Source of the DNA: Methanotrichaceae archaeon
GTDB lineage: Archaea; Halobacteriota; Methanosarcinia; Methanotrichales; Methanotrichaceae
DNA length: 64,000 nt
NCBI GenBank assembly: GCA_963748825.1
Contig: CAVVKN010000007.1
Span: 9,488 to 73,487 of the forward strand
Direction of reading: 5' to 3'
Shown here: positions 3,674-62,837 of the stretch, piece after piece
How the letters are laid out: the number at the start of each line of letters is the position of its first letter
How positions within the stretch are numbered: position 1 is the stretch's first letter
Made by a program: the position numbers and the translations under genes
The notes under the pieces: model-generated
Database searches by the model: none
The model's input: only the letters and a program-made list of their open reading frames with translations
What the model was told of the DNA's origin: nothing

Positions 3674-3700
3674 ATTCATCCAATCCCGAAAGGAGCAGTC

Positions 3701-5711: not shown

Positions 5712-6026
5712 TCACGCTTTTACAGGAATCGTCCCCTTTCCCGGCTCATAACCTCTAGAGTTTGCCGAAAATCTATCCGGAGCCATGGACCCAGGATAAA
5801 CGACAGCTCTTTTAGCCAGAGCATTCCAGCATCCTCGGCAGTCTAGCTTTTTCTCCAGTTCTTCAGCTACCCAGGCGGGTGCATTAGACTGCCTTATCTC
5901 GGCTAGGATTAAATGCTTCATGATACTGCAATCTCGTTCATCCTCTGCATCACAGGTGTGTTCAAAAAAAATGCCCATTAGATCGATGCTCGGCTTTTTG
6001 GATCCTTCCTCAGCGGATTTGCCCAT
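5712..6026 (-). CDS. Hypothetical protein (104 aa, four Cys including CRGC)
   Basis: Only long ORF in this intergenic space, divergent from the permeases; no recognised family. Confidence 0.55.
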   Translation of the reverse strand: MGKSAEEGSKKPSIDLMGIFFEHTCDAEDERDCSIMKHLILAEIRQSNAPAWVAEELEKKLDCRGCWNALAKRAVVYPGSMAPDRFSANSRGYEPGKGTIPVKA

Positions 6027-6150
6027 ATCTTTTAACCCCAGCAGTTTTCACTTGGCCTGTGTGTAACTATTAAGCGTTATAAAACTATATAATCCTTGCC
6101 ACCAATCCACTAACTTGATAACCCATAAAGCGGCATAAAGGCTCGCAAAG

Positions 6151-7332: not shown

Positions 7333-7346
7333 GTGAAGAGGATTAA

Positions 7347-47818: not shown

Positions 47819-48298
47819 CTATTCTTGGCGGAGGAAATCGCCCATATCATCTTTTTCTGATATCATCCATCTTCCTTTTCCCAAAATTTTATCCAATTTA
47901 ACTTTCTTGGCTTTCTCCAGAGGAGAGGAGCCGTGGCATCTTATGTAGCATTTGAAAAGGAGATCTTCATGAATAGCCCTCTTGTGAGGATCGCTCCTGA
48001 AGCTCTCGATCAGGATATCTCTCGTCTTGAGAATCTGCTCAATGGCATCGCCTAAATCGCCTTTCTTGAGCTCCACCAGGCAGAGCACTTTTTGGCCGCC
48101 TCTGGTGAAGAAGACCGCAAGATCGCACAGCTTGCCATCATATCCCATGTCCTTACGAAATGGTCCATTTGGACCTTCGTCAATTCTGAAAAACAAGACG
48201 ACTTCATCAGTGGCACGTCGCACACTCACAGTGACTTTATTCTCCGTGAAGCTGTTGCCTTGCCACAGGCATCTCGATAGCAGAGTATTAAAAGGCAT
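47819..48298 (-). CDS. Small putative PD-(D/E)xK nuclease (159 aa)
   Basis: CDLAVF...LCLVELKK...AIEQI pattern; AGGTGA RBS overlapping the ATPase stop, 10 nt gap. Confidence 0.65.
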   Translation of the reverse strand: MPFNTLLSRCLWQGNSFTENKVTVSVRRATDEVVLFFRIDEGPNGPFRKDMGYDGKLCDLAVFFTRGGQKVLCLVELKKGDLGDAIEQILKTRDILIESFRSDPHKRAIHEDLLFKCYIRCHGSSPLEKAKKVKLDKILGKGRWMISEKDDMGDFLRQE

Positions 48299-48308
48299 CC
48301 TGCTTCAC

Positions 48309-49694
48309 CTAAATCTGGAAATAAATATTGGATACCTGCTCTGACACATCCCCGAAGGTTCCCCAGTCAATCATCCCGTCCTCAGAAAGCACATTTTTGG
48401 CCGTGCCGTCTTCAAAGAGGTAAACCGACACCTTATCCTTGGAGAGGAATGCCTCCGACGTCTTCAGGTAAAACTTCTCCGCTGCCTCATCCGGCCGCTC
48501 CTTTTTTGCGCCCTCCATGATATTGACCAGATGATCGACGATGTAAGGGCTGTGGGTGGTGACGATTATCCTGATCCCCGAGTTCACGAGGATGGCAAGC
48601 AGCTCTATGATCTTGGCCTGGGCCTCTGGATGAAGGTTCATTTCCGGCTCGTCTATGACCAGAAGATCTCCTGGCATGGCTACGTAGGTCAGATAGAGAT
48701 ACAATGGCGAGAGTGACTTTACCAGGGAGGCAGTGGCAGGGATCTCTACAGTCTTTCCGTCTGCGCCCGATGGCTTGAATAGAACTCTGTTGGCCTTGAG
48801 CACAGGGTCCGATTGGATGAGTTGCAGATCTCCTTTTAGAAGCTCTGTGCGAAGGAGGTTCGCCAATTCCAGGTACCGTCTCACATGAAGATCATTGTCG
48901 GCGGTCTCTTCTCTGTCTTTGAGATTGCCTCTATCCCTGATATCGGCGATCATGCTCATTAGATTGTCTATTGGATATGATTGATTGAATGAACCGGAAT
49001 CAATCCGGTTCCTCAGATCCCCAATTTTTGGAGGCGAAAGAGCCAGGGAGGAATAAGCGATCCTTTCCGGTGGGAAAAAGAAGATTCTGGGATAAATGGA
49101 ACGAATCAGGGGGGTTAATACTGCAGAATGAGAAAATTCATCAATTCCCGTGGATAGTGGTTTTGAATCATCCTCGCTGCCTGCTACATAGAATTTTATT
49201 GATCGTTCCCCTTTAATTTTCTGGATATGAAGTGTCTCTAACCTCCTAAGTCCTAACGGTATCTTCCATGAAGAAGCATAATTCATGATACCCTCGGACC
49301 ATTCGTTCGTCATATCACTGGGATCGAGACTAAGCTCAAGTTCTTCAAAAATTGAGTCATCAGTTCCCAGGTATTTTCCCAACGAGCGAGACGCTGTTCT
49401 TGCAAGATCATTCAGGAATTGGGACCCTCGGATTTGCTGAAATTCAATGAGGTCTATTAGCGCAGTGCCGTTCTCGGCAAACGAAGAGTTTGCCTCGTCT
49501 ACTTCAGAATAATTGATGGATCCAAGCCTAAATCGCTCCAGTAACTCGAATATACATAAGGATGAAAAAGCAGATGCGATCAGATAAGCCGTCCAGGTCT
49601 TGCCGGTATTATTTTGGCCGATAAAGACGGTCAGAGGTTTAATATTAATATTTGCCTCCCTTACTGGCCCCAGATTTCTGATAACTGCATGCAT
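48309..49694 (-). CDS. ABC-type (AAA_15/AAA_21-like) ATPase
   Basis: IRNLGPVREA..I.IKPLTVFIGQNNTGKT Walker A, LLVIDEPEMNLHP Walker B/D-loop, TTHSPY H-loop; start at 49694 or 49748. Confidence 0.88.
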   Translation of the reverse strand: MHAVIRNLGPVREANINIKPLTVFIGQNNTGKTWTAYLIASAFSSLCIFELLERFRLGSINYSEVDEANSSFAENGTALIDLIEFQQIRGSQFLNDLARTASRSLGKYLGTDDSIFEELELSLDPSDMTNEWSEGIMNYASSWKIPLGLRRLETLHIQKIKGERSIKFYVAGSEDDSKPLSTGIDEFSHSAVLTPLIRSIYPRIFFFPPERIAYSSLALSPPKIGDLRNRIDSGSFNQSYPIDNLMSMIADIRDRGNLKDREETADNDLHVRRYLELANLLRTELLKGDLQLIQSDPVLKANRVLFKPSGADGKTVEIPATASLVKSLSPLYLYLTYVAMPGDLLVIDEPEMNLHPEAQAKIIELLAILVNSGIRIIVTTHSPYIVDHLVNIMEGAKKERPDEAAEKFYLKTSEAFLSKDKVSVYLFEDGTAKNVLSEDGMIDWGTFGDVSEQVSNIYFQI

Positions 49695-49785
49695 TCGCAA
49701 TTCTATTGGCAAAGCATTGGTTAAATTAATATCGCTTCCACTCCTCATCGAAATCATTTTAGACTCTGAAGATGTGTGATTCCTC

Positions 49786-52700
49786 ATGGACCGATCAGCG
49801 ATACACGACATGACTTTGCGGGCGCGAGAGCTTCTCATGGGCGAGACGCAAGACTTGCTGCAGGGCATTTACGGCCTGGACAGCAAGGGCAATTTTGAAG
49901 ATGTGAAAAGGCTGCCCGCGGCCTTGTCCCTGCCGGAGATCGGAGCGACCAGAAAGCGCCTGGAAAAGTTTCTCAAAGACGAAGAGCAGGCGGGCCTCCC
50001 GCGCCGGGAGGCTGTGGCAAAGCTGGTCAAAGAGGCGGCCTTCACCCACCTCAACCGATTAGTTGCCTTCAAGATGATGGAAGCCCGAAAGCTCATCCGC
50101 GGAACTGTGGATCGCTATCAAGAGTCCAATGCCTTCAAGTTTTATTTAGCCGAGCACGATGATGAACTCCGGCTCTACGAGCAGGGAAGCCAGCCCCAAA
50201 GCGAGGTAGGCGAGGGGCCGAGGGACCTGGCATACAGGCATTTCCTGCTCTGGCAGTGCGAGCAACTTTGCAAAGAGATCAAGGTGCTCTTTGATCCTGA
50301 GAACCTGGCCAGCCAGCTCTTTCCCCGGCCCAGGGCCCTGAAGTCGCTCCTGGAGATGCTCAATGACCCGGCGCTACAAGAAGCCTGGAGAGAGGAGGAG
50401 ACGGTAGGCTGGATCTACCAGTACTTCAGCGAAGAAGAGAAGAAAGACGTCTTCGACCGGCTCTACAAGAAGAAGCAGAAGATCCGGCCCGAGGACATTC
50501 CCGCAGCCACGCAGCTCTTCACGCCCCGCTGGATTGTCAAGTTCCTGGTGCAAAACACCCTTGGCAGACAATGGATGCAGATGCACCCGGACTCCTGCCT
50601 TGCGGCCGCCCTGGATTATCTCGTCCCCCTGGCAGGAGAGATCCCGGCAGAAAAGATGAAGCCCGTGAGAGAAATCGAGGTGCTCGATCCGGCCTGCGGC
50701 ACCATGCACTTTGGTCTGGTGGCCTTCGACCTTCTGGCAGAGATGTACCGGGAGGAGATGGAGCGGGCCGGGAGCCCCGGTTGGCCGGAAAAGCCCTCCG
50801 TCGCCTCAGCGGAGACCATACCGGCAGCCATCATCGCCAACAACATCTTCGGCATCGATATCGATCTGCGGGCGGTGCAGCTCTCCGCCCTGGCGCTCTA
50901 CCTGAAAGCCAAGAGCCTCAATCCCAAAGCACAGATCACAGACAGCCACCTGGCCTGTGCTGAGCTGCAACTGCCCGACGACGCCAAGCTGGAGGTGTTT
51001 CTCCAGTCTTGCAAGTTCACCCTGCCCGTTTACGAGAGAATCATCCGCAAGCTGTGGAGCACCATGCGGGGCGGATCGGGCATCGGCGCCGGATCGCTGC
51101 TGCCCCTGGAGAGCGCCATAACTCTGGAGGTGGAGCGGGAGCGCCGCTCTCATCTCACCAGCTTGCAGAGGTTCGAAGACCTGGCCGATGCCCCAGAGGA
51201 TGTGGCCCGCACGGCAGTGTGGGGGCCGGAGTTCTGGGACGTTTTGGGCGACCAGATCGTGATGGCCTTCAACAGCTTCGCAGACGAGCAGGCGGCAGCG
51301 GGCGGGGATGAGAGCTACTTTGTGGGCGAGGCGAGCAAAGGGATGCGGCTGCTGGACATCATGCGCCGCAAGTACGACTGCGTTTTCACCAATCCGCCCT
51401 ACATGACACGAAAGAACATGCAAGAGCCGCTATCAGACTTTTTGGAAGCCAACTATTCTGAAGCCAAGGGCGACTTTTACACAGCCTTCATCAAGCGATG
51501 TCTGGAGCTGACCAAGGATTTTGGGCGCTTCGGACTCTTGACAGTCCATTCCTTCATGTTCGTCAGCTCTTACGAGAAGCTCAGGGAGAAGATATCAGCA
51601 CTCAGGCGGCCATTGAATCGGGCTGCCACCTCGGGCCGAGGTCGGAGTTTGAGATCTCCAATCCCAATGCGCAAGGGTTTGTGGCCTTCACCTGTCGCAA
51701 GGGCTCGGATGAGGTCCGGCTCTTCAATCCGGACGACAGCTGGTACGGAACCTGGTACAGGCTCATAAAAGCGGAGGGCGAGGAGAAGAGAACGCTCTTC
51801 GAAAAGCAGCTTGCTGGGCAGGCGGAGGGCGTTTACGTCTATCAGCAGGCGGCCTTCAACTCCATTCCCGGCAGCCCCTGGGTCTACTGGATCACGCCCG
51901 GGCTGCGGCGGTTGTTCGTGGAGCTGCCCAAGCTGGGGGAGATAGCGCAACCGTATGCATAGGAATGAGAACGGGAGATAATTTTCGCTTTCTGCGATTC
52001 TGGTGGGAAGTGGGCGTTGATCAAATAGGTATTCGGTATGAAGAGCAGAGATGAGGCGCATAGAGTCAGGAAGAAAATGGTTTCCGTATATGAAAGGGGG
52101 AAGTTTCCAACGCTGGTATGGGAATCAAGAATTTGTTGTTGAATGGGACAATGATGGACAAATAATTAAAGAGAACACAAAGCAGAATTATCCTGGACTA
52201 GGGAATAATTTAGGTTGGAAGATCTGAATGCAGAATCACTATTTCCAGCGTGGTGTAACCTGGACTGAACTGACTTCAGCACGTTTCAGCGCCAGGCTTT
52301 CTCCGGGCGGTTTCATCTTTGATGTTGCAGGATCGTCATTATTTCCCGACGGATGTCTCTTTAATTCTGGGAATTATGAACTCGACATTCTCTCAATTGC
52401 GCTCAATATTATTAATCCTACTAGTTCATGTTCAAGTCGGCGACTTGGCCCGCCTGCCTATACCCACCGAGTCCAGCAAGCAGCTTGAGAATCTCGTCGA
52501 TCGTGCCATCTCCCTGGCCATGAAGGAATCCGCCGAAGACGAGACCACCTTCGACTTCATCGCCCCGCCCTGGACCGTCTCCCTGGACGACACCCTCACC
52601 GAGATCTGGCTGCGAGACGAGATCCTAGGCGATGTGGAGAAGGCCATCGACGAGGAGGTCTACCGGCTCTACGCCATCTCCGACCAGGATCGAAAGGCCA

Positions 52701-53642
52701 TCGAGTCCGAGCTGGCCCAGCCCGTCGCCGAGGGCGAAGAGGCAAGAGGAGAAGCCGGATTACATCGATGATGAGGAGCTGGCCCGCCGCTGGATCTCCT
52801 ACGCCGTGGGCATCGTCATGGGCCGCTTTTCGCCTGACATCTCTGGTGCCCTGGGCCAGGGCCGTTTTTCTTCGCCGGTGGCAGCACAGCTTCGCTCCCT
52901 GGCCGACAACGACGGCGTGGCCACCCTGGATGAAGGCCATCAGGACGATCTGGCCCGCAACGTCTGGAATACCCTGGAGACCGCTCTGGGCGAGTCCGGG
53001 GCCTCGGAGATCGTGGAGACCGTATTGGGCGATGGCCACCCCGAGTCACTGCTGCGCCGCTACCTGGAGCGGGACTTCTGGAAGCGACACCTCCAGCAAT
53101 ACCGGAAAAGGCCTGTCTACTGGCTGCTGCAGTCTCCGGCCAAGAGCTTCAGCGTCTACGTCTTCCACGAGCGGGCCACCAGGGACACCCTGCCGCTCAT
53201 CATGGGCACGCGCTACGTCACCGGCAAGATCAACCAGCTCAAGAACCGCATGGACGAAGTCCAGATGGAGAAGAAGACAGCGGAAGGCCGGGCTAAGAAG
53301 ATGCTGGAAAAGGATCTGGAGGACCTGGAGACAAAGCTTCTGGACCTGGAAGCCTTCCAGGCTGCCATCCGGCGTGTACTGGGGCAGAAAGACGAACGGG
53401 GCGAGACGGTGGGCTGGGCACCGGAGATCGACGACGGCGTCATCCTGAACCTGGCTCCTCTGCATGGGCTGATGCCCTCCTGGAAGGAACCGGAGAAGTT
53501 CTGGAAAGAGCTGGAGGAGGGCAAGTACGACTGGTCCTACACGGCCATGCGCTACTGGCCGGACAGAGTGGGGGAGAAGTGCAAAAAGAACAAATCCTAT
53601 GCGATAGCGCACGGAAGGATGGACGTGTACGAAGGCGGATGA
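49786..53642 (+). pseudogene. pglX: BREX N6-adenine methyltransferase PglX, broken in this sequence by about eight frameshifts and one TGA (51590-52745)
   Basis: LDPACG motif I, TNPPY motif IV, then TGDN.RFLRFWWEV, KWFPYMKGG..RWYGN, RPVYW and IDDGVILNLAPL spread over shifting frames. Confidence 0.88.
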
Positions 53643-53702
53643 CTGCTTGCTTATCTTGCGCAATCTATTTACGGACTTTGGACTTAGAGGAAAATTAGAA
53701 GG

Positions 53703-54152
53703 ATGGATAAAATGAGCGGTTCCGATGATTGGATCCATGCCGGTTTCAGCCAGTTTAAGAAAGCTTTCAGGGACCACTGGGAAAACGGATCAAAAAGAGA
53801 AGATCCGTCGCACTATCTGCTGAGATTTTATTCTGTAGAATGCGGATTAAAATCCATGTACATTTATAGTAAAGATTAAACATATAAAATGAATAGCAAG
53901 AATATGCCCAATCATGGGCATAGACTCGATTGGTGGCTTGAGGAACTCATGATCTCTGCAAGCGACATCAATCCTCCTCCAAAATTCACATTAAATAGTA
54001 GCATAAACATAAACTCACCCAGAGAAATCTATAGATCACACGAAGCCTGGCGGTATGGAGTAAAAATGGACCCGACAAAAGAGAAGCTCCTGCTTGAGTG
54101 GTTTGATAAAGCTGAAAAATATATTAAGGATTACTTACAGGAGGCAATGTGA
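53703..54152 (+). pseudogene. HEPN-like protein (about 149 codons) split by one in-frame TAA at 53877-53879
   Basis: Same frame on both sides: ...HYLLRFYSVECGLKS...SKD*TYKM...GHRLDWWL...REIYRSHEAWRYG...; stop overlaps the next start (TGATG). Confidence 0.55.
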
Positions 54153-56773
54153 TGATCCCGGATAATATTAGCCTCTTTACCTGGCTTGACGTTGAAGAGG
54201 TCCTTGTAAGATTGAGTCAAACAGGAGACTGGCCAAAATGGTTGCACTATGCTCGGACATATTGGGACCAGCTTTCGCTAAGCATACACCCGGGCAAAAC
54301 TGAGGATGCAAAGAAATGGCTTGCTGGTGAATTTACACCCAGATTTAATGAAGAAAAAATGGAAATTGAACTGGAACGAGATATCGATAACGAACCCAGA
54401 GTACTTCCCGTCTATCTGGAAGAGACTGAGGAGGAACTTGGGAGACTTCGAGTCAAGCCATCATTTACTAGGCCGGTTGCAATTCGACAAACGGTGCTGG
54501 AAGATCAACCTTTTGGTGAGATCAAGCCGCACGTAATAGCTTTTCATTCGTTTAAGGGCGGCGTGGGTAGGACGGTCCAGGCATTGGCATTGGCCATGGC
54601 TTTAGTAGAGAAAAGAAAATTCAAGGTTCTTCTAATTGACGGAGACCTGGAAGCTCCGGGCATTTCCTGGCATTTCATCGAAAGAATGCGCCCGCCTATT
54701 TCATACGTTGATTTTCTCTCGTTGATACATGGTGATCCAGATCCAGAGGCATCAAAGAGCATTAAATTAGTGGCAAACCGCTTAAGAGACGCCTTGGTGA
54801 ATGGCATTTATATCATGCCGGCCTTTCGTTCCATGGATAAATTCATCTCCCTTGATATCAAACCCGAGCATCTTGTCCAGGGATCAAAAGATAAATACAT
54901 CCTGACTCGCTTTTTATCCAAGCTGGGAGAAAAACTGGGAGTGGATTTTGTAATTGTTGATCTTAGAGCCGGCCTCTCTGAGATTTCAGCGTCCCTTCTT
55001 CTCGATCCGAGAGTATACCGTATTTTGGTAACAACACTAAGTGCTCAATCCATTAATGGTATGAAATTACTGCTACAGTTACTGGCAAGAGATGCTCCAT
55101 CAAGAAGATCTGATCAGCCCTTGCCATCCTTGATTCTCTCGCAAGTGCCCGGAGATTATCCTTCTGGAGAATTGGACAAGCACAAGAAGGAGATTCTAAG
55201 TGCTTTGGAAAACATGTGGGTGCCATCGGATGATAATTCCAATGATGAACCTACTGCGATTTGCACCGTTACCGCCTTCGATAAAGATCTGGCAGTTCTT
55301 CCCGAGTCATGGGATAAAGCCGTAGGGCTTATTAAGAAATCCAGATTCTCAGACGACCTGGCCGAGATCTTGGATTGGCTTCCTAATGTTACACAATCTG
55401 TTTTTGGATTGGAAGAAAAACGGATATCTCTCTCGGAATATGCTAATAGCATTATCTACGCAGAAGCCGGAAATGTAACTGACTACCTGAGGATACGTCC
55501 TTTGAACAGGCTTGTATCCGAATTCAGCACAAGGGTTCCAATAGCCGTTGTTATCGGTGCAAAAGGCTCAGGAAAAACACTAACTTATCTTCAATTGGCC
55601 CGTTCAAAGGAATGGAGTCGTTTTGGATCGGATGGATCTAGAGATATTCAGGTGAATGCGGTTGTCGTTCCAGTTCTTAAGCCCGCAATTTTAGAACCGG
55701 AAGCTATGGCCATCGTAAATGAAGCAAAGAATAATTCGGCCAAAAACCTTCGCCTATCCACACCATATAGCTGGGAAGACGTATATGATGATATCCGAGA
55801 TCGCATTCAAGAGGATGTCCATGAGAGCAAATGGCGGGACTACTGGCTTGATTATATCGCTTGGAGCTCAGGATTCGAGGTAAAGAAACAAGGAGCTGGA
55901 CGTAGATTCCCAGATTACCTTCGTGAAAAGAAATTAAACGTAGTCGCAATTATCGACGGCTTGGAAAATTATTTCTTAAAGCTTTCTTCTGACGAAAAAG
56001 AGCAAACCGCGGTGAGGTCTTTGCTTCAAGACGTTCCTAATTGGCTAGAACAGCAGGTTTCGCGTCCCTTGGGCATACTAATCTTCATTCGGAAGGACAT
56101 GGTATTAAATGCTCTTCCCCAAAATTCGTCTCAGTTTATTGCTGTATACCGGAATTACGAATTAAATTGGAGTAGCGTTGAGGCTTTGCGTCTATTCGCA
56201 TGGATCTCAATGAAGGCAAACGCATTGGAAAGTGAAAAAATTAATATGTTGCAGGATCTGGGAAAGGAACAATTAGCTCAGATACTAATTCCTCTATGGG
56301 GGCGAAAACTGGGCCGCGAAAACTCCCGAGAAGCGATCTCAGCTAATTGGGTAATTTATGCCCTATCGGATTATAACGGCCAGCTCCAAGCCAGAGATGT
56401 TGTCAGGTTCCTCAGTCTCGCATCAAATAGATCCAAAGGCTCTTCATTAGATGATCGCGTCCTTGTTCCCCAGGCTATGAAAAAATCATTGCTTCCTTGT
56501 AGTCAGGAAAAGGTCAAGGATGCAGGCTCTGAGAGTAAAGACCTTGCTCGGATATTCGATAAGATAAGAGAAATACCCGACGATAAGAAGCTCATTCCAT
56601 TTAGTCGAAAAGATCTGGAGATTGAGTCGAATGATCTTGAGCTCCTTGAAAATAGCGGAGTAATCCGGAGAGACGGAGAAGAATACTACATTTGTGAGAT
56701 CTTCCGATGGGGTCTTGGCTTTGGACTTCGGAAAAGGGGCCGACCTGGCGTAATCGACGATGCCAAGCGTTAA
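54149..56773 (+). CDS. KGGVGR-type ParA/MinD domain fused to a second P-loop NTPase (874 aa)
   Basis: FHSFKGGVGRT, LIDGDLEAPG, VDLRAG (ParA-like); VIGAKGSGKT and IIDGLE (second NTPase); wHTH-like C-terminus. Confidence 0.85.
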   Translation: MMIPDNISLFTWLDVEEVLVRLSQTGDWPKWLHYARTYWDQLSLSIHPGKTEDAKKWLAGEFTPRFNEEKMEIELERDIDNEPRVLPVYLEETEEELGRLRVKPSFTRPVAIRQTVLEDQPFGEIKPHVIAFHSFKGGVGRTVQALALAMALVEKRKFKVLLIDGDLEAPGISWHFIERMRPPISYVDFLSLIHGDPDPEASKSIKLVANRLRDALVNGIYIMPAFRSMDKFISLDIKPEHLVQGSKDKYILTRFLSKLGEKLGVDFVIVDLRAGLSEISASLLLDPRVYRILVTTLSAQSINGMKLLLQLLARDAPSRRSDQPLPSLILSQVPGDYPSGELDKHKKEILSALENMWVPSDDNSNDEPTAICTVTAFDKDLAVLPESWDKAVGLIKKSRFSDDLAEILDWLPNVTQSVFGLEEKRISLSEYANSIIYAEAGNVTDYLRIRPLNRLVSEFSTRVPIAVVIGAKGSGKTLTYLQLARSKEWSRFGSDGSRDIQVNAVVVPVLKPAILEPEAMAIVNEAKNNSAKNLRLSTPYSWEDVYDDIRDRIQEDVHESKWRDYWLDYIAWSSGFEVKKQGAGRRFPDYLREKKLNVVAIIDGLENYFLKLSSDEKEQTAVRSLLQDVPNWLEQQVSRPLGILIFIRKDMVLNALPQNSSQFIAVYRNYELNWSSVEALRLFAWISMKANALESEKINMLQDLGKEQLAQILIPLWGRKLGRENSREAISANWVIYALSDYNGQLQARDVVRFLSLASNRSKGSSLDDRVLVPQAMKKSLLPCSQEKVKDAGSESKDLARIFDKIREIPDDKKLIPFSRKDLEIESNDLELLENSGVIRRDGEEYYICEIFRWGLGFGLRKRGRPGVIDDAKR

Positions 56774-56838
56774 GCGTGCTTTGCGGCAAGAAGAATCCTA
56801 TTTATTGTTAGATACCCGATTAATTAAAGAGGATCAAC

Positions 56839-57363
56839 ATGTCCAATAAAAAACCAGATTCCGTCCCCTCAATAATGCAGCCCGTCTACGAAGAGATCAC
56901 AAAGCTGACCGATGCCGTATGCGGCAAGCACCTGGATGAAGAGTATGCTGAGCTTGCCCGCAAAATGACGGCAGCTCTGGCGAGAAAAAGGCCCTCGCCG
57001 CTGGAAAGAGGCAGAAAGGATGTCTGGGCGGCGGCAATTGTCTATTCACTGGGCAATGTCAACTTCCTCTTTGATAAAAGCCAGGTGCCCCACATGAAGG
57101 CAGACGAGCTGGCTGACCTTTTTGGAGTTAGTCAGAGGACTGCTGCCAACAAGGCCCGACAGATTAAGGATATCCTCAAAATGAGCCCGATGGATCCCAA
57201 ATGGTGGCGACGCTCTAAAATGGAGTCGAATCCTCTGGCCTGGTGGGTTCTGGTTAACGGTCTGGCGGTCGACGCCCGCACGCTCCCTCTTGAGTTTCAG
57301 GAGGAGCTTGTACGGCGCAAGCTCATACCCTTCGTCCCCGGAAAACGGACCGAGCCAAAATGA
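56839..57363 (+). CDS. DUF6398-like protein
   Basis: LARKMTAALARKRPSPL...WAAAIVYSLGNVNFLFDKSQ.PH...L...FGVSQRT...KA..I; family from memory. Confidence 0.7.
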   Translation: MSNKKPDSVPSIMQPVYEEITKLTDAVCGKHLDEEYAELARKMTAALARKRPSPLERGRKDVWAAAIVYSLGNVNFLFDKSQVPHMKADELADLFGVSQRTAANKARQIKDILKMSPMDPKWWRRSKMESNPLAWWVLVNGLAVDARTLPLEFQEELVRRKLIPFVPGKRTEPK

Positions 57364-57388
57364 GAACAAGCTCGAAGATCTGGGGAAA

Positions 57389-59992
57389 ATGGCAATGATA
57401 GCCAGGGTCTCCGATTATTTAAGAAGCCTGATGAAAAAGCAGGTCGATGATCACGGCATCGTGGTCTGGTACGATCCCGAAGGCCATTACAGGGAGTTCG
57501 TAAAGTCCCTGGACCTGCCCGGCACTCCCCTGGAGAAATACGATGGCAGCTTCTTCGCCCTGCGCCACCGAATCGACCCCTTCCTTTCTCGCTGCGATCC
57601 ACCCCGGCTGATCGTCTACGTTCCTCTGGATCGCTCTCTAACTCACAACGCTCTCGTCGAGGCCGAGGCCGCCGGCGTGGTCATTTTTCCGGGAGCCCAG
57701 CCCCGCCCTCGCAACACCCGGCTCTCGGTCGTCGCCAAGGCCGCGCTGCGGGGAAAAATGGGCGACCAGGATCTGACCCAGATTGAAAAGCAAGTAGAGG
57801 CGGGAAAGCTCAGCCTGGCCGACCTCGACAGGATGGCTGATGGCGGCCCGGGCAGCTCCCGAGGGCTCCTCTCCCTGATCTTCGGCACCAGCAGCTCGCA
57901 TGATGTGGCGCTGAGATTCTTATCCAGCGAGCAATATGATGAAGAGCTCCTAAAGAAGGATGCATTGTCCGAGCTGGCGGCGCTTCTCCAATCGGAGTAT
58001 GAGCTGGCGACGCAGGCGACCCAAGGGACGCAGGAGGGCGAAAATGCAAAGGATCTCAGAGGACGATTGGCCAGGCATATCCTGATCACTGATTTCCTCA
58101 ATGCCCTGCAGGGAATCACTCCACAGCAGCTCTCTTCTCTGAAGATCGCAACTGATCCGGCTGCATGCAAAGCCTGCATCGGCCTGGCTAAAGCCTGGCG
58201 ACTGAGAAGAGACCTGAGAGATAGTTACGTAGCTGCCTCAAACCAGGTCTTTGCAGATCTCAGTCTCTCCAATATACCGCTCAACATGGATCAGATCATA
58301 AACGTCGAGACCTTTCTTGAGACTGAGCAGGCTTTGCAGAGCATGGTCGAAGACGCCCTGGCCAAAGAGACCAGAGCAGACCTGGTGGAAATGGCGCAGC
58401 AGCATCAATCAGGCTTCTGGTCGGAGCAGCCAATGGTCCAGGCCCGCTGGAGCTCGATCACTGTGGCCGGCCAGGTTCTCCTGGAGGCCGATAGGGTGGA
58501 AAAGGAGCTTCGCTCCTGCCAGGAGAGCGCCAAATCTATTTTTGACGCTTATGTCTCTGGACAGCGCCCCTGGCTCCTCCTGGATTCCTCCTACCGCAAC
58601 ATGGAGAAGAGGTTTAACAATCTCGATCTGGAGATAGGAGACGACCTGGAACACCTCATCATAAGAGCCCGGCAGAGATACATGGATGCAACCTCAAAGC
58701 TGCTGGAGTGCTTCCTGCGTTCTTTTCAGCAAGAAGGCTTCCAAATCCCAGGAGCCCTCCGCCAGGCGGAAATATTTGAAAGCCAGGTCAAACCGGCTCT
58801 GGCCGAGGGCAAGACCGCCTATATCTGGGCCGATGCCTTGAGGTTCGAGATGGCCAGGGAATTGCTCCAGTCTCTGAATGCGGAATTCCAGGGGGAGCTG
58901 AAAACCTGCATAGCGTCTGCACCAACCATCACTGAAATTGGCATGGCTTCCTTGCTTCCGGGAGCCTCTGCAAGCCTTGTGATAAAAGCGTCTGAGGGAA
59001 AGCTTGCTCTGCAGATCGACGGGACGATCATCCGGGATCGAGCAGATCGGGTAGATTCCTCAAAGATAAGAACAGGAGCAAAGTTCTTTGAGGGAGACCT
59101 GGATAGCCTGCTTCCAAGGCCTGCAAGGGCCATATCCAAGGCCATTATGGATGCAGATCTAATTCTTATTACCTCTCAAGAGATCGACAACCTCTGCGAG
59201 AGTGACAATATCTCATTTGCCCGAACCTTCATGAACGAGCTTCTCTCCCGCCTGCAAAAAGCCATCCGCAACCTCTCCCGACTGGGCGTGAAGAAGATAA
59301 TAGTAACTGCTGACCATGGCTATCTTTTTGGCGAAGAATTGGGCGTGGATATGAGCATCGATCCTCCGGGAGGAGACACTGCAGACCTGCACCGAAGGGT
59401 TTGGATTGGCCGGGGCGGATCATCAGGCCCGGCATACCTTCGCGCCAGAATGTCCGATCTGGGACAGGGCGGAGATCTGGAGATGGCAACTCCCTGGGGC
59501 CTGGCATGTTTCAGGGCCAAGAGCAAATCCAAGGCATATTTCCACGGCGGTCTCTCTCCTCAAGAGCTGATCATTCCTGTTCTTACTCTGACACCTATTG
59601 CAGCGGAAAAGAAATCGGGAGAAGATATCGTCTGGTCTATGGACTACGGCGGAAGGAAATTGACCACTAGGTATTTCTCAGTGAATATATCCGCCAAGGC
59701 AGGCCATAGCCTATCCAGCATCAAGCCTCACCGAATCAGGCTGGAGCTTAGGGAACAAAGTGCCTGCATATCCAAGGCCATTTCGGCTTCTTACGGTTTC
59801 GAAGATGCCACGGGAGAGATACAAATGAAGAATGCGGAAAAGGAGCCCTGGACAATGGAACCGAACACCATAACCTTGCAGATCACTAAAGACCCCTCTG
59901 AAAAGAAGGTAAGCCTTCATCTACAGGGCGCACTTACTGATATAGAATTAGCGCCACCAAAGACGATCGACGTATCAATGCTAAAATACTGA
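57389..59992 (+). CDS. pglZ: BREX phosphatase PglZ
   Basis: VVWYDPE, IWADALRFE, PTITEIGMASLLP, VTADHGY and YFHGGLSPQELIIP. Confidence 0.92.
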   Translation: MAMIARVSDYLRSLMKKQVDDHGIVVWYDPEGHYREFVKSLDLPGTPLEKYDGSFFALRHRIDPFLSRCDPPRLIVYVPLDRSLTHNALVEAEAAGVVIFPGAQPRPRNTRLSVVAKAALRGKMGDQDLTQIEKQVEAGKLSLADLDRMADGGPGSSRGLLSLIFGTSSSHDVALRFLSSEQYDEELLKKDALSELAALLQSEYELATQATQGTQEGENAKDLRGRLARHILITDFLNALQGITPQQLSSLKIATDPAACKACIGLAKAWRLRRDLRDSYVAASNQVFADLSLSNIPLNMDQIINVETFLETEQALQSMVEDALAKETRADLVEMAQQHQSGFWSEQPMVQARWSSITVAGQVLLEADRVEKELRSCQESAKSIFDAYVSGQRPWLLLDSSYRNMEKRFNNLDLEIGDDLEHLIIRARQRYMDATSKLLECFLRSFQQEGFQIPGALRQAEIFESQVKPALAEGKTAYIWADALRFEMARELLQSLNAEFQGELKTCIASAPTITEIGMASLLPGASASLVIKASEGKLALQIDGTIIRDRADRVDSSKIRTGAKFFEGDLDSLLPRPARAISKAIMDADLILITSQEIDNLCESDNISFARTFMNELLSRLQKAIRNLSRLGVKKIIVTADHGYLFGEELGVDMSIDPPGGDTADLHRRVWIGRGGSSGPAYLRARMSDLGQGGDLEMATPWGLACFRAKSKSKAYFHGGLSPQELIIPVLTLTPIAAEKKSGEDIVWSMDYGGRKLTTRYFSVNISAKAGHSLSSIKPHRIRLELREQSACISKAISASYGFEDATGEIQMKNAEKEPWTMEPNTITLQITKDPSEKKVSLHLQGALTDIELAPPKTIDVSMLKY

Positions 59993-60029: not shown

Positions 60030-62057
60030 ATGCCCAAGCTCGATCAAAAGGTCACTTCCGTCTTCGCAGGGAGAGTGGTTCGTAAAGACTTAGTCAGGAA
60101 AGTAAAGGTCGGAGCCAACGTCCCTGTCTTTGTATTAGAGTATCTCCTGGGCAAATACTGCGCTACCGATGATCAGGCAACGATCGAGGCAGGACTCAAG
60201 GTGGTCAATTCTACCCTTGCAGACAACTTTGTCCGTCCCGACGAGGCCAACAAAGCCCAGTCCTTTGTGAAAGAGAAAGGCAAGCATACCATAATCGACA
60301 AAGTCAAAGTCCGATACTTATCTGAAGACGATAAGTATTGGGCAGAGTTCGTGAACTTCGGCCATAAGTACGTCCATATCCCTGAGCTCTATGTCCAGAA
60401 GTACGACAGAATCCTCATGGGCGGCATTTGGGCTCAAGTGGACCTGATCCACAGGTTTGACGAAGAAGCAAGAGGTAAGCGCAGTCCTTTCTGGATAGAG
60501 GATCTCAAGCCCATCCAGCTAGCCAGCTTCGATCTTCCCGAATATCTCGAATCTCGCCGCCAGTTCACCAGTGACGAATGGATAGACCTATTGATCAGAA
60601 GCATTGGCATGGAGCCTTCTCACTTCGACAGAAGGCTCAAGCTTCTTTTCCTGATCAGGCTGGTTCCCCTGTGTGAGCAAAATTACAATCTCATAGAACT
60701 GGGACCCCGTGGAACCGGTAAGTCTTACGCCTATCAGGAGTTCACACCCTACGCCATACTTCTCACCGGCCCAACGACCGTGGCCAACCTATTCTATAAC
60801 ATCGGAACTGGCAAAATGGGCCTAGTGGGCCTATGGGACGCAGTGGCCTTCGATGAGGTAGCAGACCTGCAAAAGATGCCTAAAGAAGTCATAACCACCC
60901 TTAAGACTTACTGCGAGTCGGGCACCTTCGCCCGAGGTAAAGACGCTCTATCCGGAACGGCATCAATTGTCATGTTTGGCAACACTAACCAGCCAGTCGA
61001 GATCATGGTCCGGTCCTCTCACCTCTTCGCGCCCATGCCTGAGGTGATCCGGGAGGATATGGCCTTTTTCGATCGCATTCATTTCTACTTGCCAGGATGG
61101 GAAGTGCCCAAAATGCAGGTGGATTTCTTCACGGACCATTATGGTTTCGTGGTAGACTACCTGGCCGAGGCCTTGAGGGAGCTACGCCGTCATAATTTTG
61201 TGGATAAGGTTGATCATTACTTCTCCTTCGGCTCCCACCTCAATGCCCGTGATGTCAAAGCTGTGCGAAAGACCGTATCCGGCCTCATCAAGCTCATCTA
61301 TCCTCATGGGGAGATCACGAGGGAGGAGATGGCCGAATTATTGGAGCTGGCCATAGAAGGAAGACGCCGCGTCAAGGAACAGCTCAAGAAGATGGGTTCC
61401 TTCGAATACCATCAGACTTCATTCTCATACATCGACAATGAGACCCGAGAGGAGCGCTACGTAGGCGTTCCGGAAGAGGGAGGAAGGGACCTAATCTCGC
61501 AAGATCCTCTCGCGCCGGGCTCGATATATGCGGCATCAGTTGACGACCAGGGCAAGGCAGGCTTATTCCGCCTGGAAGTTGGATCTGCTCCCGGAACAGG
61601 CAAGTTGAAGATGGCTGGTGGAATCGATAGCACCACGAAGGAGTCGATACAGCGAGCTTTCGCTTATCTTAACGGCCATAAAGTGAGCATGGGAATTGCG
61701 CAAACTTTTGAAACTACGGACTTCCATGTTGAGGCCATCAATCTTATGAATAATCATATATCTTGCGATGCAGGCGTGGGATTGGTTGTAGCCATTTACT
61801 CAGTCCTTATGAAACAACCTGTACTCCCTGGACTAATGGTCTTGGGCGATCTCAGCATTCAGGGCAATATTAAAGCAGTACGCTCTCTTGCTGAACCTTT
61901 GCAGGCAGGGATGGATAATGGCGCCAGATGTGCTCTAATCCCCATAGAGAATAAAAGGCACTTTCTCGATGTCTCTGCGGATATTGTGGAGCGTGTTGAT
62001 CCCGTTTTTTACAGTGACCCATTTACAGCCGCAAGGAAAGCGCTGGGACTGAAATAA
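60030..62057 (+). CDS. brxL: BREX Lon-related protein BrxL
   Basis: VPVFVLEYLLGKYC, ELGPRGTGKS, VAFDEV, DMAFFDRIH...GWE, LNARD, Lon-like C-terminus. Confidence 0.93.
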   Translation: MPKLDQKVTSVFAGRVVRKDLVRKVKVGANVPVFVLEYLLGKYCATDDQATIEAGLKVVNSTLADNFVRPDEANKAQSFVKEKGKHTIIDKVKVRYLSEDDKYWAEFVNFGHKYVHIPELYVQKYDRILMGGIWAQVDLIHRFDEEARGKRSPFWIEDLKPIQLASFDLPEYLESRRQFTSDEWIDLLIRSIGMEPSHFDRRLKLLFLIRLVPLCEQNYNLIELGPRGTGKSYAYQEFTPYAILLTGPTTVANLFYNIGTGKMGLVGLWDAVAFDEVADLQKMPKEVITTLKTYCESGTFARGKDALSGTASIVMFGNTNQPVEIMVRSSHLFAPMPEVIREDMAFFDRIHFYLPGWEVPKMQVDFFTDHYGFVVDYLAEALRELRRHNFVDKVDHYFSFGSHLNARDVKAVRKTVSGLIKLIYPHGEITREEMAELLELAIEGRRRVKEQLKKMGSFEYHQTSFSYIDNETREERYVGVPEEGGRDLISQDPLAPGSIYAASVDDQGKAGLFRLEVGSAPGTGKLKMAGGIDSTTKESIQRAFAYLNGHKVSMGIAQTFETTDFHVEAINLMNNHISCDAGVGLVVAIYSVLMKQPVLPGLMVLGDLSIQGNIKAVRSLAEPLQAGMDNGARCALIPIENKRHFLDVSADIVERVDPVFYSDPFTAARKALGLK

Positions 62058-62363: not shown

Positions 62364-62837
62364 TTGAAGGATTTGACAACTGTTTACGACGTACCTCCCC
62401 ATGACTTAATAGCTGCCGTGGCCCAGGAGCTAAAGGCGGCGGGCAAGGTTCAGCCCCCGGAATGGGCTGAGTTTGCCAAGACTGGGGTAAATAGGGAGAT
62501 GCCGCCCACAAACCCCGATTGGTGGTTTGTGCGGTGCGCATCAGTATTGCGCAGGATATATATCGACGGCCCGGTGGGCGTTTCCCGCCTTAGAAGCTTC
62601 TACGGCGGAAAACACCGCAAGGGTGTAGCTACAGGATTCTTCTGCAAAGGCAGCGGCTCAGTAGCTAGAGAGTCCCTGCAGCAGCTGGAGAAGGCCGGCT
62701 ACGTGAAGAAACTAAAGAAAGGACGCCAAATGACCCCGGCGGGTCAGGCATACCTTGATGGAGTAGCCCATAAGATAAGAAGCCAGATGCAAGGCTCCGC
62801 TGCACCTGCAGCAGAACCTGCTGCGGATTCGGCATAA
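62364..62837 (+). CDS. rps19e: 30S ribosomal protein S19e
   Basis: TTVYDVP...[11 protein letters not shown]...[31 protein letters not shown]. Confidence 0.97.

What the first reader, a model, noticed from the sequence alone, without database searches (positions are those of the whole stretch)
53703..56773. HEPN-like gene coupled to a ParA/MinD + P-loop double NTPase inside BREX
Seen: a 149-codon frame with YLLRFYSVECGLKS, GHRL and R-x5-H (REIYRSH) followed by WRYG overlaps (TGATG) the start of an 874-aa protein with an unknown 125-aa N-domain, a KGGVGRT ParA-like domain, a second GAKGSGKT NTPase and a wHTH-like tail; both AT-rich, between pglX and pglZ. Established: HEPN domains with Rx4-6H are RNases common in abortive infection, and NTPase-effector pairs typify conflict systems. 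I know no experimentally described system with this pairing. Inference: a new two-component defence module in which the double NTPase senses infection and gates an RNase.
Basis: partly seen in the sequence, partly recalled or inferred. Interest (0 to 1): 0.75.

Follow-up and report, generated by a model that had tools for sequence, protein, structure and literature searches.

The report
Broken defence-candidate cassette nested in BREX
A small helical protein gene and a large double-ATPase gene, always found together in over 500 microbial species and related to an untested anti-virus candidate called PDC-M28, sit inside a BREX immunity locus of this archaeon, but this copy is disabled by a stop codon.

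Summary
A 149-codon frame (53703-54152) with an in-frame TAA overlaps the start of an 873-aa protein (54152-56773). Both lie between a frameshifted pglX and pglZ and are AT-rich.

The pair is a strictly conserved, translationally coupled operon. At least 502 species genomes encode the large protein. The small gene sits directly upstream in about 75 of 78 evaluable loci, across archaea and ten bacterial phyla.

It is not unclaimed. The two genes are collinear with the three genes of PADLOC candidate PDC-M28, with B and C fused, although the match to A is weak. PDC-M28 was predicted from embedding in BREX, DISARM and type I restriction loci and has not been tested.

In the Methanothrix-type clade a DUF6398 gene is a third cassette member. 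The 3.7-kb cassette (53618-57338) moves as a unit.

The invariant residues are E46-x3-K50 in helix 2, H73 in the helix 2-3 insert, and R117 at the end of helix 3. These match the published AF0298/AbiV-type variant HEPN pattern, but no sequence or fold search is significant.

Defence function and RNase activity remain inference. Neighbourhoods outside Methanothrix are mostly not defence-related.

The parts
53618..57338 (+). Whole mobile cassette: leader, small gene, large gene and DUF6398 gene
   Evidence: Homology between the window and contig L088 is confined to exactly this span, at 88% nt identity. L088 otherwise carries unrelated, bacterial-type flanks. Its cassette GC is 0.45 against 0.60 and 0.53 in the flanks. 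The same three genes occur outside BREX in L088 and L089-L091.
53703..54152 (+). Small gene (149 codons), HEPN-like variant four-helix-bundle protein and PDC-M28A-like; a pseudogene in this window
   Evidence: The AF2 model of the 93%-identical intact homologue P0001 has pLDDT 92 and pTM 0.87. Family members hit PDC-M28A weakly.
53877..53879 (+). In-frame TAA nonsense codon (Lys59 AAA to TAA)
   Evidence: Intact homologues have K at this position. A near-identical metagenome contig reads A at 53877.
53838..53852 (+). ECGLK, the E46-x3-K50 motif in helix 2 (position of the conserved HEPN acidic/basic pair)
   Evidence: E46 is invariant and K50 is at least 90% conserved in 116 family representatives. 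The motif definition comes from PMC3710099.
53916..53927 (+). GHRL, containing invariant H73 in the insert between helices 2 and 3
54039..54059 (+). HEAWRYG: H113 (at least 90% conserved), then invariant R117 and Y118 at the end of helix 3
54152..56773 (+). Large gene (873 aa), intact; a fusion of PDC-M28B-like and PDC-M28C-like parts
54152..54526 (+). N-terminal alpha/beta domain (aa 1-125) of unknown fold family; W11 and D13 invariant
   Evidence: No Pfam or PDB sequence match.
54527..55156 (+). MinD/ParA-type domain of the KGGVGR variant. The Walker A has Arg in place of the P-loop Lys (54554-54574). DGDLEAPG is at 54638-54661 and VIVDLRAG at 54950-54973.
   Evidence: NCBIfam NF047398 scores 159 bits against a cutoff of 90. 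PADLOC PDC-M28B scores 3.8e-17. Foldseek top hits are FlhG, FleN, MinD, HypB and ParA.
55469..56116 (+). Second P-loop NTPase, STAND-like and of the Sll1717 family. Walker A GAKGSGKT is at 55556-55579, Walker B IIDGLEN at 55949-55969, and ILIFIRKD at 56075-56098.
   Evidence: NF047389 scores 47 bits, below its cutoff of 75. AAA_22 and nSTAND1 are sub-threshold. Homologues' C-terminal halves hit PDC-M28C in 35 of 38 cases.
56117..56770 (+). Helical region plus C-terminal winged-helix-like tail (about 56606-56722)
   Evidence: AF2 secondary structure shows H819-822, H826-834, E838-841 and E844-847. No database match was found, so the assignment rests on topology only.
56839..57363 (+). DUF6398 gene (174 aa), a clade-specific third cassette gene with an HTH-like segment
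   Evidence: Pfam PF19935 scores 6.8e-43. It follows the pair in every Methanotrichaceae-type locus, including loci outside BREX. It was not found next to the pair in other phyla.
49786..53642 (+). pglX of the host BREX locus, a pseudogene with several frameshifts
   Evidence: tblastn of the intact 1281-aa PglX from L001 maps in frames 1, then 3, then 2, then 3. The ORF pieces are listed.
57389..59992 (+). pglZ of the host BREX locus
   Evidence: Pfam PglZ and PADLOC PglZ at 4e-98. The likely ATG is at 57389.

Best explanation
**What it is.** A horizontally mobile cassette of about 3.7 kb that belongs to the same kind as the PADLOC 'phage defence candidate' PDC-M28. It has landed between pglX and pglZ of a type 1 BREX locus in a Methanothrix-like archaeon.

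**Components.**
1. A 149-aa four-helix-bundle protein with an invariant constellation of Y43, E46, H73, R117 and Y118, plus K50 and H113. This fits the variant (AF0298/AbiV-type) HEPN active-site layout.
2. An 873-aa protein, translationally coupled to the first. It carries:
   - an unknown N-terminal domain;
   - a MinD/ParA-type domain whose P-loop Lys is always Arg (KGGVGRT);
   - a STAND-like P-loop NTPase with a helical and winged-helix tail.
3. In this clade only, a DUF6398 protein with an HTH-like segment.

**Proposed mechanism (inferred, not shown).**
- The large protein is a two-stage nucleotide switch. The STAND-like module would oligomerise on a cue. The MinD-like module would dimerise on nucleotide binding.
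- This switch would hold the small protein and, on activation, bring copies of it together.
- The small protein would then act as a metal-independent RNase or nucleic-acid-binding effector, causing abortive infection.

**State of this copy.** It is dead or crippled. The small gene has a recent AAA-to-TAA nonsense mutation, and the host BREX has a frameshifted pglX.
For: **Shown**
- The pair is conserved in at least 502 species genomes. The small gene is immediately upstream in about 75 of 78 evaluable loci.
- In 73 loci the two genes overlap or nearly abut: 33 have a 4-nt overlap and 7 a 1-nt overlap.
- Both genes are under purifying selection.
- Collinear homology to PDC-M28. B matches at 3.8e-17. 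C matches in 35 of 38 homologues, best 1.6e-20. A matches weakly, in 4 of 44 members at best 0.0055; it is one of only two PADLOC families hit, the other being a single Cas8b match at 0.029.
- PDC-M28 was nominated by embedding in BREX, DISARM and type I restriction loci.
- The cassette is embedded in BREX here and in L001-L004 and L032, beside other cargo: a PD-T4-4-like ATPase, PemK and PIN.
- The cassette is discrete and mobile, with low GC.

**Suggestive**
- Disruptions fall on the small gene far more often than its length predicts. Eight loci plus the window have only the small gene disrupted, against five with only the large gene disrupted, although the large gene is 6.3 times longer. 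The binomial p is about 1e-4 to 1e-5. This fits a costly or toxic small protein.
- A metatranscriptome contig spans the gene junction.
Against: - There is no experimental evidence for defence, for this family or for PDC-M28.
- Outside Methanotrichaceae the immediate neighbours are mostly housekeeping genes (UvrB, MFS, AcrB, metabolic enzymes). Only a handful are defence genes: MADS, type I RM, PDC-S17.
- HEPN membership is not statistically supported. No Pfam hit was found, Foldseek E is at least 0.4, and no PDB sequence hit was found.
- The canonical His four to six residues after the Arg is absent.
- The window's own small protein and C-terminal half do not reach the PDC-M28A or PDC-M28C models.
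- No sensor repeats or recognisable effector domain are present.
- The roles of the N-terminal domain and of DUF6398 are unknown.
Confidence: 0.55

Rival explanations
1. The small protein is not an enzyme. It is a regulatory or adaptor partner of the MinD/ParA-like domain, analogous to MinE, ParB or FleQ partners that tune SIMIBI ATPases. Any effector activity would lie in the large protein's unknown N-terminal domain or in its nucleotide turnover.
For: - MinD/ParA-family ATPases normally work with a small partner protein (established knowledge). FleN-FleQ and MinD-MinE complexes are among the closest structures.
- The canonical HEPN His is absent, and no nuclease family matches.
- The N-terminal domain has invariant W11 and D13 and an unknown function.
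Against: - An invariant cluster of Tyr, Glu, His, Arg and Tyr across 116 divergent representatives is more typical of a catalytic or ligand pocket than of an interface.
- The small gene is preferentially inactivated. That is expected for a costly effector, less so for a regulator.
Confidence: 0.2
2. It is a non-defence cellular system, for example nucleotide-switch signalling or positioning machinery typical of filamentous or developmentally complex prokaryotes. On this view it was merely trapped in the BREX locus in Methanothrix.
For: - Most neighbours in 43 non-redundant loci are housekeeping genes.
- Hosts are predominantly filamentous or multicellular lineages: Microcoleus, Nostoc, Moorena, Streptomyces, Frankia, Chloroflexota, Polyangiaceae and Methanothrix.
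Against: - The distribution is patchy and crosses domains, with about 45% identity between archaea and cyanobacteria.
- Insertion sites vary even between related genomes, and the cassette has discrete boundaries and low GC.
- Pseudogenisation is frequent.
- There is homology to a cassette found repeatedly inside BREX, DISARM and RM loci.
- Kaur et al. 2020 link this same phyletic pattern to conflict systems.
Confidence: 0.13
3. It is a classical toxin-antitoxin addiction module. The small protein would be a constitutive toxin held in check by the large protein acting as antitoxin, stabilising the mobile cassette rather than sensing phage.
For: - The genes are tightly coupled, and the small gene comes first and is preferentially lost.
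- Cargo at the same BREX slot in relatives includes PemK and PIN toxins.
Against: - Five loci keep an intact small gene while the large gene is split by stops or frameshifts: L027, L028, L035, L057 and L064. That should be lethal for a constitutive toxin, although some may be assembly errors.
- An 873-aa double NTPase is far larger than any known antitoxin.
Confidence: 0.1
4. The frames are chance ORFs or an assembly artefact in an AT-rich spacer.
For: The small frame is interrupted by a stop, and the neighbouring pglX is frameshifted.
Against: - There are hundreds to thousands of homologues.
- dN/dS is 0.10-0.18.
- The AF2 models are high-confidence.
- Synteny is conserved.
Confidence: 0.01

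Closest known systems
PDC-M28 (PADLOC-DB v2 'phage defence candidate', three-gene cassette A>>B>>C; Payne et al., bioRxiv 10.1101/2024.01.29.577857)
   Same: - The gene order is collinear and all three parts are homologous. The small protein matches A weakly. The N-terminal domain plus KGGVGR ATPase matches B at 3.8e-17. The second P-loop ATPase matches C in 35 of 38 homologues.
- Both are found embedded in BREX.
- Neither has been tested experimentally.
   Different: - Here B and C are fused into one polypeptide of about 880 aa.
- The Methanothrix-clade proteins are so divergent that only the B model fires, so PADLOC would not call the system.
- This clade has an extra DUF6398 gene.
- I did not retrieve a split PDC-M28 locus to align directly.
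HEPN superfamily, AF0298-like HEPN-T / AbiV variant (Anantharaman et al. 2013, PMC3710099; PDB 2hsb)
   Same: - A four-helix up-down bundle with a long insert between helices 2 and 3.
- E-x3-K in helix 2.
- A conserved Arg at the end of helix 3.
- No His downstream of the Arg; instead a conserved His is supplied by the insert.
- 2hsb is the best non-cytochrome Foldseek hit.
   Different: - No significant sequence or structure match (Foldseek E 0.73; no Pfam HEPN model).
- An additional near-invariant His lies four residues before the Arg (H-x3-R), and the Arg is followed by Tyr.
- The partner is a double NTPase, not a minimal nucleotidyltransferase.
MinD/ParA/FlhG/FleN (SIMIBI deviant-Walker-A ATPases)
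   Same: - The fold matches (Foldseek E about 1e-6, TM 0.6-0.7 on the target).
- The signature Lys, the switch Asp residues and the hhhhD Walker B are all present.
   Different: - The catalytic P-loop Lys is invariably Arg (KGGVGRT).
- The domain is embedded in a multidomain protein.
- No partition or division context was seen next to the pair in the loci surveyed.
STAND NTPases with fused inactive MinD/ParA-like domains in conflict systems of multicellular prokaryotes (Kaur et al. 2020, PMC7159879); Avs/bNACHT defence STANDs
   Same: - The MinD/ParA-like domain is combined with a STAND-type NTPase.
- The phyletic bias is towards filamentous or multicellular prokaryotes.
- NTPase plus helical plus winged-helix order.
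   Different: - No TPR, WD40 or other repeat sensor.
- No fused effector or effector-associated (EAD) domain.
- The STAND assignment here rests on sub-threshold Pfam hits and motifs.
- The putative effector is a separate small protein.
ATPase + small effector defence pairs nested in BREX/RM (PARIS AriA/AriB, PD-T4-4, BrxU, PrrC)
   Same: - The same genomic logic: an NTPase sensor plus a small effector as cargo inside a methylation-based system.
- A PD-T4-4-like ATPase pair sits in the same BREX locus here.
   Different: The protein families are unrelated (ABC/OLD-type ATPases with Toprim or HEPN-PrrC effectors), and there is no sequence homology.

Membership tests
HEPN superfamily | [quoted passage not shown] | tested here: met
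   The AF2 model (pLDDT 92) has helices 15-29, 35-57, 109-118 and 124-144, with a 50-residue insert. The fold description is from PMC3710099.
HEPN superfamily | R-x4-6-H motif at the end of helix 3 / start of the helix 3-4 loop, conserved across the family | tested here: not met
R117 is invariant at the right place, but no His follows within 4-6 residues.
HEPN superfamily | Variant active site (AF0298/AbiV type): Arg kept, and an alternative conserved His from the helix 2-3 insert | tested here: met
   H73 is invariant and lies in the insert. R117 is invariant.
HEPN superfamily | Conserved acidic residue in helix 2, typically E-x3-[KR] | tested here: met
   E46 is invariant and K50 is at least 90% conserved. 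Both lie in helix 35-57.
HEPN superfamily | Significant profile or structure match to a recognised HEPN family | tested here: not met
   - Pfam gives no hits for 44 members at E up to 10.
- Foldseek against PDB gives 2hsb at E 0.73 and 1ufb at E 0.91.
- PDB profile searches are empty.
- HHpred-type profile-profile comparison with HEPN families could not be run.
HEPN superfamily | Metal-independent endoRNase activity | not testable with these tools
   This needs biochemistry.
PDC-M28 (PADLOC candidate) | B component: N-terminal region plus KGGVGR-type ATPase | tested here: met
   PDLC04559 scores 3.8e-17 over aa 124-322 of the window protein.
PDC-M28 (PADLOC candidate) | C component: Sll1717-type P-loop ATPase | tested here: inconclusive
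   35 of 38 family C-terminal halves hit PDLC04561 (best 1.6e-20), but the window's own half gives no hit at E up to 1. The window half hits NCBIfam NF047389 below its cutoff.
PDC-M28 (PADLOC candidate) | A component: small upstream protein | tested here: inconclusive
   Only 4 of 44 family members hit PDLC04558 (best 0.0055) and 1 hits PDLC04557 (0.014). Only two PADLOC families matched at all: PDC-M28A and a single Cas8b hit at 0.029. The window protein gives no hit.
PDC-M28 (PADLOC candidate) | Three separate genes in the order A>>B>>C | tested here: not met
   B and C are one ORF in all 80-plus loci examined. The order is otherwise collinear.
MinD/ParA (SIMIBI) ATPase | Deviant Walker A, KGGxxK[ST], with the catalytic Lys | tested here: not met
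   KGGVGRT: the signature Lys is present, but the catalytic Lys is replaced by an invariant Arg in 95 sequences. NCBIfam classifies it as the 'KGGVGR-motif variant'.
MinD/ParA (SIMIBI) ATPase | MinD-like fold with switch and Walker B aspartates | tested here: met
   Foldseek top 50 hits are FlhG, FleN, MinD, HypB, ParA and Soj. D163, D165 and D270 are invariant or nearly so.
STAND NTPase | P-loop NTPase (Walker A GxxGxGKT, Walker B hhhhD, Arg after strand 4) followed by helical and winged-helix domains | tested here: inconclusive
   - The motifs are present and invariant: G469-T476, D602/E605 and R647.
- The secondary-structure order fits.
- Pfam nSTAND1 (16 bits against 27) and AAA_22 (23.5 against 27) are below cutoff.
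- Homologues carry precomputed nSTAND1, NACHT and AAA_16 hits.
- No PDB sequence match was found.
STAND NTPase | C-terminal repeat or sensor domain | tested here: not met
   The protein ends in a short winged-helix-like tail, and no repeats are detected.
BREX type 1 (host locus) | brxA, brxB, brxC, pglX, pglZ and brxL present on one strand | tested here: met
   Pfam and PADLOC hits for all six genes. However, pglX is frameshifted.
Validated anti-phage defence system | Enrichment next to known defence genes across the family | tested here: inconclusive
   Only the two genes on each side were scanned, in 43 non-redundant loci. A few defence hits appeared (MADS, RM-I, PglZ, PDC-S17) among mostly housekeeping genes. 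No background comparison was made.
Validated anti-phage defence system | Protection against phage when expressed | not testable with these tools
   No paper was found on KGGVGR, Sll1717 or PDC-M28 function.

The most novel reading that the evidence does not exclude
The small protein founds a new, widespread branch of HEPN-like RNases with an E-x3-K / insert-His / H-x3-R-Y active site. Its activity would be gated by a previously unstudied two-stage nucleotide switch, in which a Lys-to-Arg MinD-type dimeriser is fused to a STAND-type oligomeriser. Together they would form a new abortive-infection immune system shared by archaea and bacteria and recently exchanged between the two domains.
Probability: 0.25. 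Interest if true: 0.75.

Novelty: new variant of a known kind. Interest (0 to 1): 0.5.

Why it matters
**If the module is a working immune system:**
- It would give function to three uncharacterised protein families: the small family (731 representative clusters, no Pfam entry), the KGGVGR ATPases, and the Sll1717-type ATPases.
- These families are present in more than 500 species, including cyanobacteria, actinomycetes and methanogens.
- It would provide the first test of the PDC-M28 prediction.
- It would show how a MinD-type dimerisation switch can be wired to a STAND-type switch to control an effector.

**Further points of interest:**
- The invariant Lys-to-Arg P-loop is an unusual, testable feature.
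- The cassette may be an example of very recent archaeon-bacterium transfer of a conflict module.

**For this particular window,** the practical message is more modest. Both the BREX locus and its cargo are decaying, so this copy should be annotated as a pseudogene.

Tried and rejected
**Small protein**
- Pfam, PADLOC, NCBIfam and PHROGs on the small protein gave nothing. Pfam at E up to 10 on 44 members gave nothing recurrent.
- PDB sequence-profile searches with the small-family profiles gave only noise.
- Foldseek of the small model against PDB and BFVD gave nothing significant.
- I tried to find bona fide HEPN/MNT genes in the fetched loci, to build a HEPN profile for hhalign. The regex screens found none, so no profile-profile HEPN test was run.

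**Large protein**
- PDB sequence-profile searches with the N-terminal domain and the C-terminal half gave only noise.
- Pfam on 38 N-terminal domains gave nothing.
- Foldseek of the whole large model reported only the MinD-like domain, so the N-terminal domain and C-terminal half could not be searched separately.

**Split PDC-M28 loci and plasmids**
- I searched for split PDC-M28-type loci among the fetched loci and found none.
- tblastn against plasmids found only Ralstonia megaplasmids, one with an IS-like insertion between the two genes.

**Literature**
- Searches for KGGVGR, PDC-M28 and sll1717 found no papers.
- The MADS and MANTIS papers gave no domain information on MAD8.
- The 2026 STAND and BREX surveys do not mention this architecture.

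**Ideas rejected**
- The idea that DUF6398 is a BREX gene was rejected. It travels with the pair outside BREX.
- The idea that the TAA is the normal state was rejected.

Full report
**1. The observation**

The frame 53703-54152 on the plus strand translates to 149 codons with one in-frame TAA at 53877-53879. Its TGA overlaps the ATG at 54152 of a long ORF that ends at 56773. Homologues start MIP..., so the protein is 873 aa from ATG 54152. KGGVGRT is at aa 135-141 and GAKGSGKT at aa 469-476.

GC content is 0.396 for the small gene and 0.445 for the large one, against 0.579 for pglX and 0.544 for pglZ.

The surroundings are a type 1 BREX locus:
- brxA at 42769-43560
- brxB at 43499-44113
- brxC at 44123-47791
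- pglX at 49786-53642
- pglZ at about 57389-59992
- brxL at 60030-62057

A ribosomal protein S19e gene at 62364-62837 marks the host as an archaeon. The nearest relatives of the cassette proteins are from Methanothrix.

**2. The genes are real, but this copy is broken**

- The small protein has 53 word-index relatives and 731 relatives among 50%-identity cluster representatives. All are stand-alone proteins of about 130-210 aa.
- The closest intact homologue, P0001 (93% identity), has Lys at codon 59, so the window carries AAA to TAA.
- A sediment-metagenome contig identical over 53844-54128 differs only by T>A at 53877. The stop is therefore private to this genome, or a sequencing error in it.
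- dN/dS against L001 and L088 is 0.12-0.18 for the small gene and 0.10-0.16 for the large one.
- The large protein is intact and keeps every family-invariant residue.
- pglX is also degraded. The intact 1281-aa PglX of a relative maps onto the window in frames 1, 3, 2 and 3.

**3. A strictly conserved two-gene operon**

The large protein has more than 1500 relatives that are conserved over their full length of about 885 aa. A scan of species-representative genomes found at least 502 encoding genomes, and the best 80 loci were fetched. They come from Methanothrix, Methanogenium, Cyanobacteria, Chloroflexota, Acidobacteriota, Actinomycetota, Bacteroidota, Desulfobacterota, Magnetococcales, Omnitrophota, Verrucomicrobiota and Polyangiaceae.

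- A profile of the small family finds an ORF immediately upstream of the large gene in all but three evaluable loci. This holds even where gene callers missed it.
- In 73 loci the spacing clusters at a 4-nt overlap (33 loci) or a 1-nt overlap (7 loci), and nearly all lie within 11 nt. The genes are therefore translationally coupled.
- Flanking genes are unrelated from locus to locus.

**4. The cassette has a third gene in this clade and is mobile**

In every Methanotrichaceae-type locus a DUF6398 gene follows the pair. This includes loci with no BREX, namely L088 and L089-L091. DUF6398 is not next to the pair in other phyla.

L088 carries bacterial-type genes such as a sigma-54 activator. Its DNA homology to the window is confined to 53618-57338 at 88% identity. 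Cassette GC is 0.45 against 0.60 and 0.53 in the flanks. This defines the cassette and suggests recent inter-domain transfer, unless that metagenome contig is chimeric.

In L089 the cassette lies beside genes that in the window map to 4.7-8.5 kb, which is a different insertion site.

In close relatives L001-L004 the same BREX slot also holds PemK, DUF4325 and PIN genes. In the window a PD-T4-4_A-like ATPase pair sits between brxC and pglX. The BREX locus is therefore a cargo hotspot.

**5. What the large protein is**

- **aa 126-311.** This region matches NCBIfam NF047398, 'KGGVGR-motif variant AAA ATPase', at 159 bits against a cutoff of 90. In the AF2 model (pLDDT 86, pTM 0.75) this part superposes on FlhG, FleN, MinD, HypB and ParA. 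The signature Lys, the DxD switch and the hhhhD Walker B are invariant, but the catalytic P-loop Lys is invariably Arg. That predicts nucleotide binding with altered or no hydrolysis. This prediction is inference.
- **aa about 440-655.** This is a second P-loop NTPase. Its Walker A (GAKGSGKT), Walker B (DGLE) and a strand-4 Arg are all invariant. Matches to the Sll1717 family, AAA_22 and nSTAND1 are sub-threshold. Homologues carry NACHT, nSTAND1 and AAA_16 hits.
- **C-terminal region.** Helical and winged-helix-like elements follow the second NTPase.
- **N-terminal 125 aa.** This is an alpha/beta domain with invariant W11 and D13. It has no relatives in Pfam or among PDB sequences.

**6. What the small protein is**

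The AF2 model of P0001 is confident (pLDDT 92, pTM 0.87). It is a four-helix bundle with helices 15-29, 35-57, 109-118 and 124-144, and a 50-residue insert.

Across 116 representatives, Y43, E46, H73, R117 and Y118 are invariant. F42, C47, G48, K50, H113, W116 and G119 are at least 90% conserved.

Anantharaman et al. 2013 describe the HEPN fold as follows:
- It is a cytochrome-like four-helix up-down bundle with an insert between helices 2 and 3.
- The motif Arg lies at the end of helix 3.
- E-x3-[KR] lies in helix 2.
- AbiV and AF0298-like families lack the motif His and use a conserved His from the insert instead.

The small family fits each of these points through E46-x3-K50, H73 and R117.

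The best non-cytochrome Foldseek hit is AF0298 itself (2hsb), but at E 0.73 and TM 0.45-0.51. No HEPN Pfam model or PDB sequence matches. I therefore rate HEPN superfamily membership as plausible (about 0.5-0.6) but unproven, and RNase activity as inference.

**7. Relation to a named candidate**

The KGGVGR region hits PADLOC PDC-M28B at 3.8e-17. The C-terminal halves of 35 of 38 homologues hit PDC-M28C, best 1.6e-20. They also hit MADS mad8 weakly.

Of the 44 small-family members scanned, four hit one PDC-M28A model (best E 0.0055) and one hits the other (0.014). PDC-M28A is one of only two PADLOC families matched; the other is a single Cas8b hit at 0.029.

PDC-M28 is a three-gene cassette, FAM_01482>>FAM_02546>>FAM_01036, with 121 instances. 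[quoted passage not shown] The window's module is thus the B-C-fused form of that candidate. It is divergent enough that PADLOC would not call it.

Kaur et al. 2020 had already noted predicted-inactive MinD/ParA-like domains fused to STAND ATPases in conflict systems of multicellular prokaryotes. The phyletic spread here shows the same bias.

**8. Is it defence?**

Evidence for:
- Embedding in BREX in several Methanothrix lineages.
- Homology to PDC-M28.
- Mobility, low GC, patchy cross-domain distribution and frequent decay.

Evidence against, or neutral:
- Among 148 immediate neighbours in 43 non-redundant loci, only a few are defence genes: MADS mad3 and mad8, type I RM, PglZ and PDC-S17.
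- Many neighbours are housekeeping genes.
- No experimental paper exists.

**9. A hint about which gene is costly**

Of 83 loci, eight have only the small gene disrupted or missing: L007, L009, L013, L015, L045, L073, L080 and L085. The window adds a ninth case. Five loci have only the large gene disrupted: L027, L028, L035, L057 and L064. The large gene is 6.3 times longer. The binomial p is 8e-5 without the window and 2e-5 with it.

This fits a costly small effector. The five loci with only the large gene broken argue against a constitutive toxin held by an antitoxin. Some of these loci are metagenome-assembled genomes, so assembly errors remain a caveat.

**10. Mechanism proposed**

The large protein would act as a two-stage nucleotide switch that binds the small protein. 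A cue, possibly nucleic acid sensed through the winged-helix tail or the N-terminal domain, would drive STAND-type oligomerisation and MinD-type dimerisation. That would bring small-protein subunits into an active HEPN-like dimer that cleaves RNA and aborts infection. Only the domain identities, the coupling and the conservation are shown here. Every functional step is inferred.

**11. Verdict**

This copy is a pseudogene in a decaying BREX locus. Novelty: a new (fused, three-gene in this clade) variant of a predicted but uncharacterised kind.

Noticed in passing
window 49786-53642: pglX of the BREX locus is a pseudogene. The intact 1281-aa PglX of a relative maps in frames 1, 3, 2 and 3, so there are at least three frameshifts. 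These could be real decay or sequencing errors.
   Followed up: partly
window 47819-49868 (minus strand): A PD-T4-4_A-like AAA_15/AAA_21 ATPase (519 aa, PADLOC 5.7e-52) and a 159-aa partner with no family match lie on the opposite strand between brxC and pglX. This is a second embedded defence-type cargo.
   Followed up: partly
L088 9470-13136 vs window 53618-57338: A contig binned as Chloroflexia carries a sigma-54 activator, cytochrome c and other bacterial-type genes. It also holds the three-gene cassette at 88% nt identity to this archaeal window, with unrelated flanks and a GC dip. This is either a candidate recent archaeon-bacterium transfer or a chimeric contig.
   Followed up: partly
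L032 5403-8670: In another Methanothrix BREX locus, a deletion joins a truncated pglX to the large gene at residue 43 and removes the small gene. brxC there is split into three pieces.
   Followed up: partly
L007-L086 (83 loci): Disruptions hit the 0.42-kb small gene more often than the 2.66-kb large gene: eight loci against five for single-gene disruptions, with a binomial p of about 1e-4.
   Followed up: partly
L087 7343-11739 (Ralstonia pseudosolanacearum megaplasmid): The small and large genes are separated by an insertion of about 0.9 kb that encodes what looks like a transposase ORF, judged from its sequence only.
   Followed up: no
window 54123-54375: A sediment metatranscriptome contig (run X5, about 98% identity) spans the junction between the small and large genes. 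This suggests co-transcription in a relative, although DNA carry-over cannot be excluded.
   Followed up: no
window 53701-56763 vs 57061-59592: Conservation against L001 is mosaic. The pair is 88% identical and brxL 87%, but pglX is 79% and pglZ only about 64%.
   Followed up: no
window 56839-57363 / 57290-57389: The longest pglZ ORF starts at TTG 57290 and overlaps the DUF6398 gene. The likelier pglZ start is the ATG at 57389 (MAMIARV...). DUF6398 contains an HTH-like stretch, ELADLFGVSQRTAANKARQIK; this reading is from the sequence only.
   Followed up: no
L089 13259-21766 vs window 2495-8507: A related genome carries its cassette copy (69% identity) next to genes that are syntenic with the window's 2.5-8.5 kb region. 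That is a different insertion site about 45 kb from the BREX slot.
   Followed up: no
A7 homologues (C-terminal half of the large protein): 26 of 38 C-terminal halves also hit the MADS mad8 model weakly (best 5e-5). This hints that the Sll1717-type ATPase is related to a mandatory MADS component.
   Followed up: no
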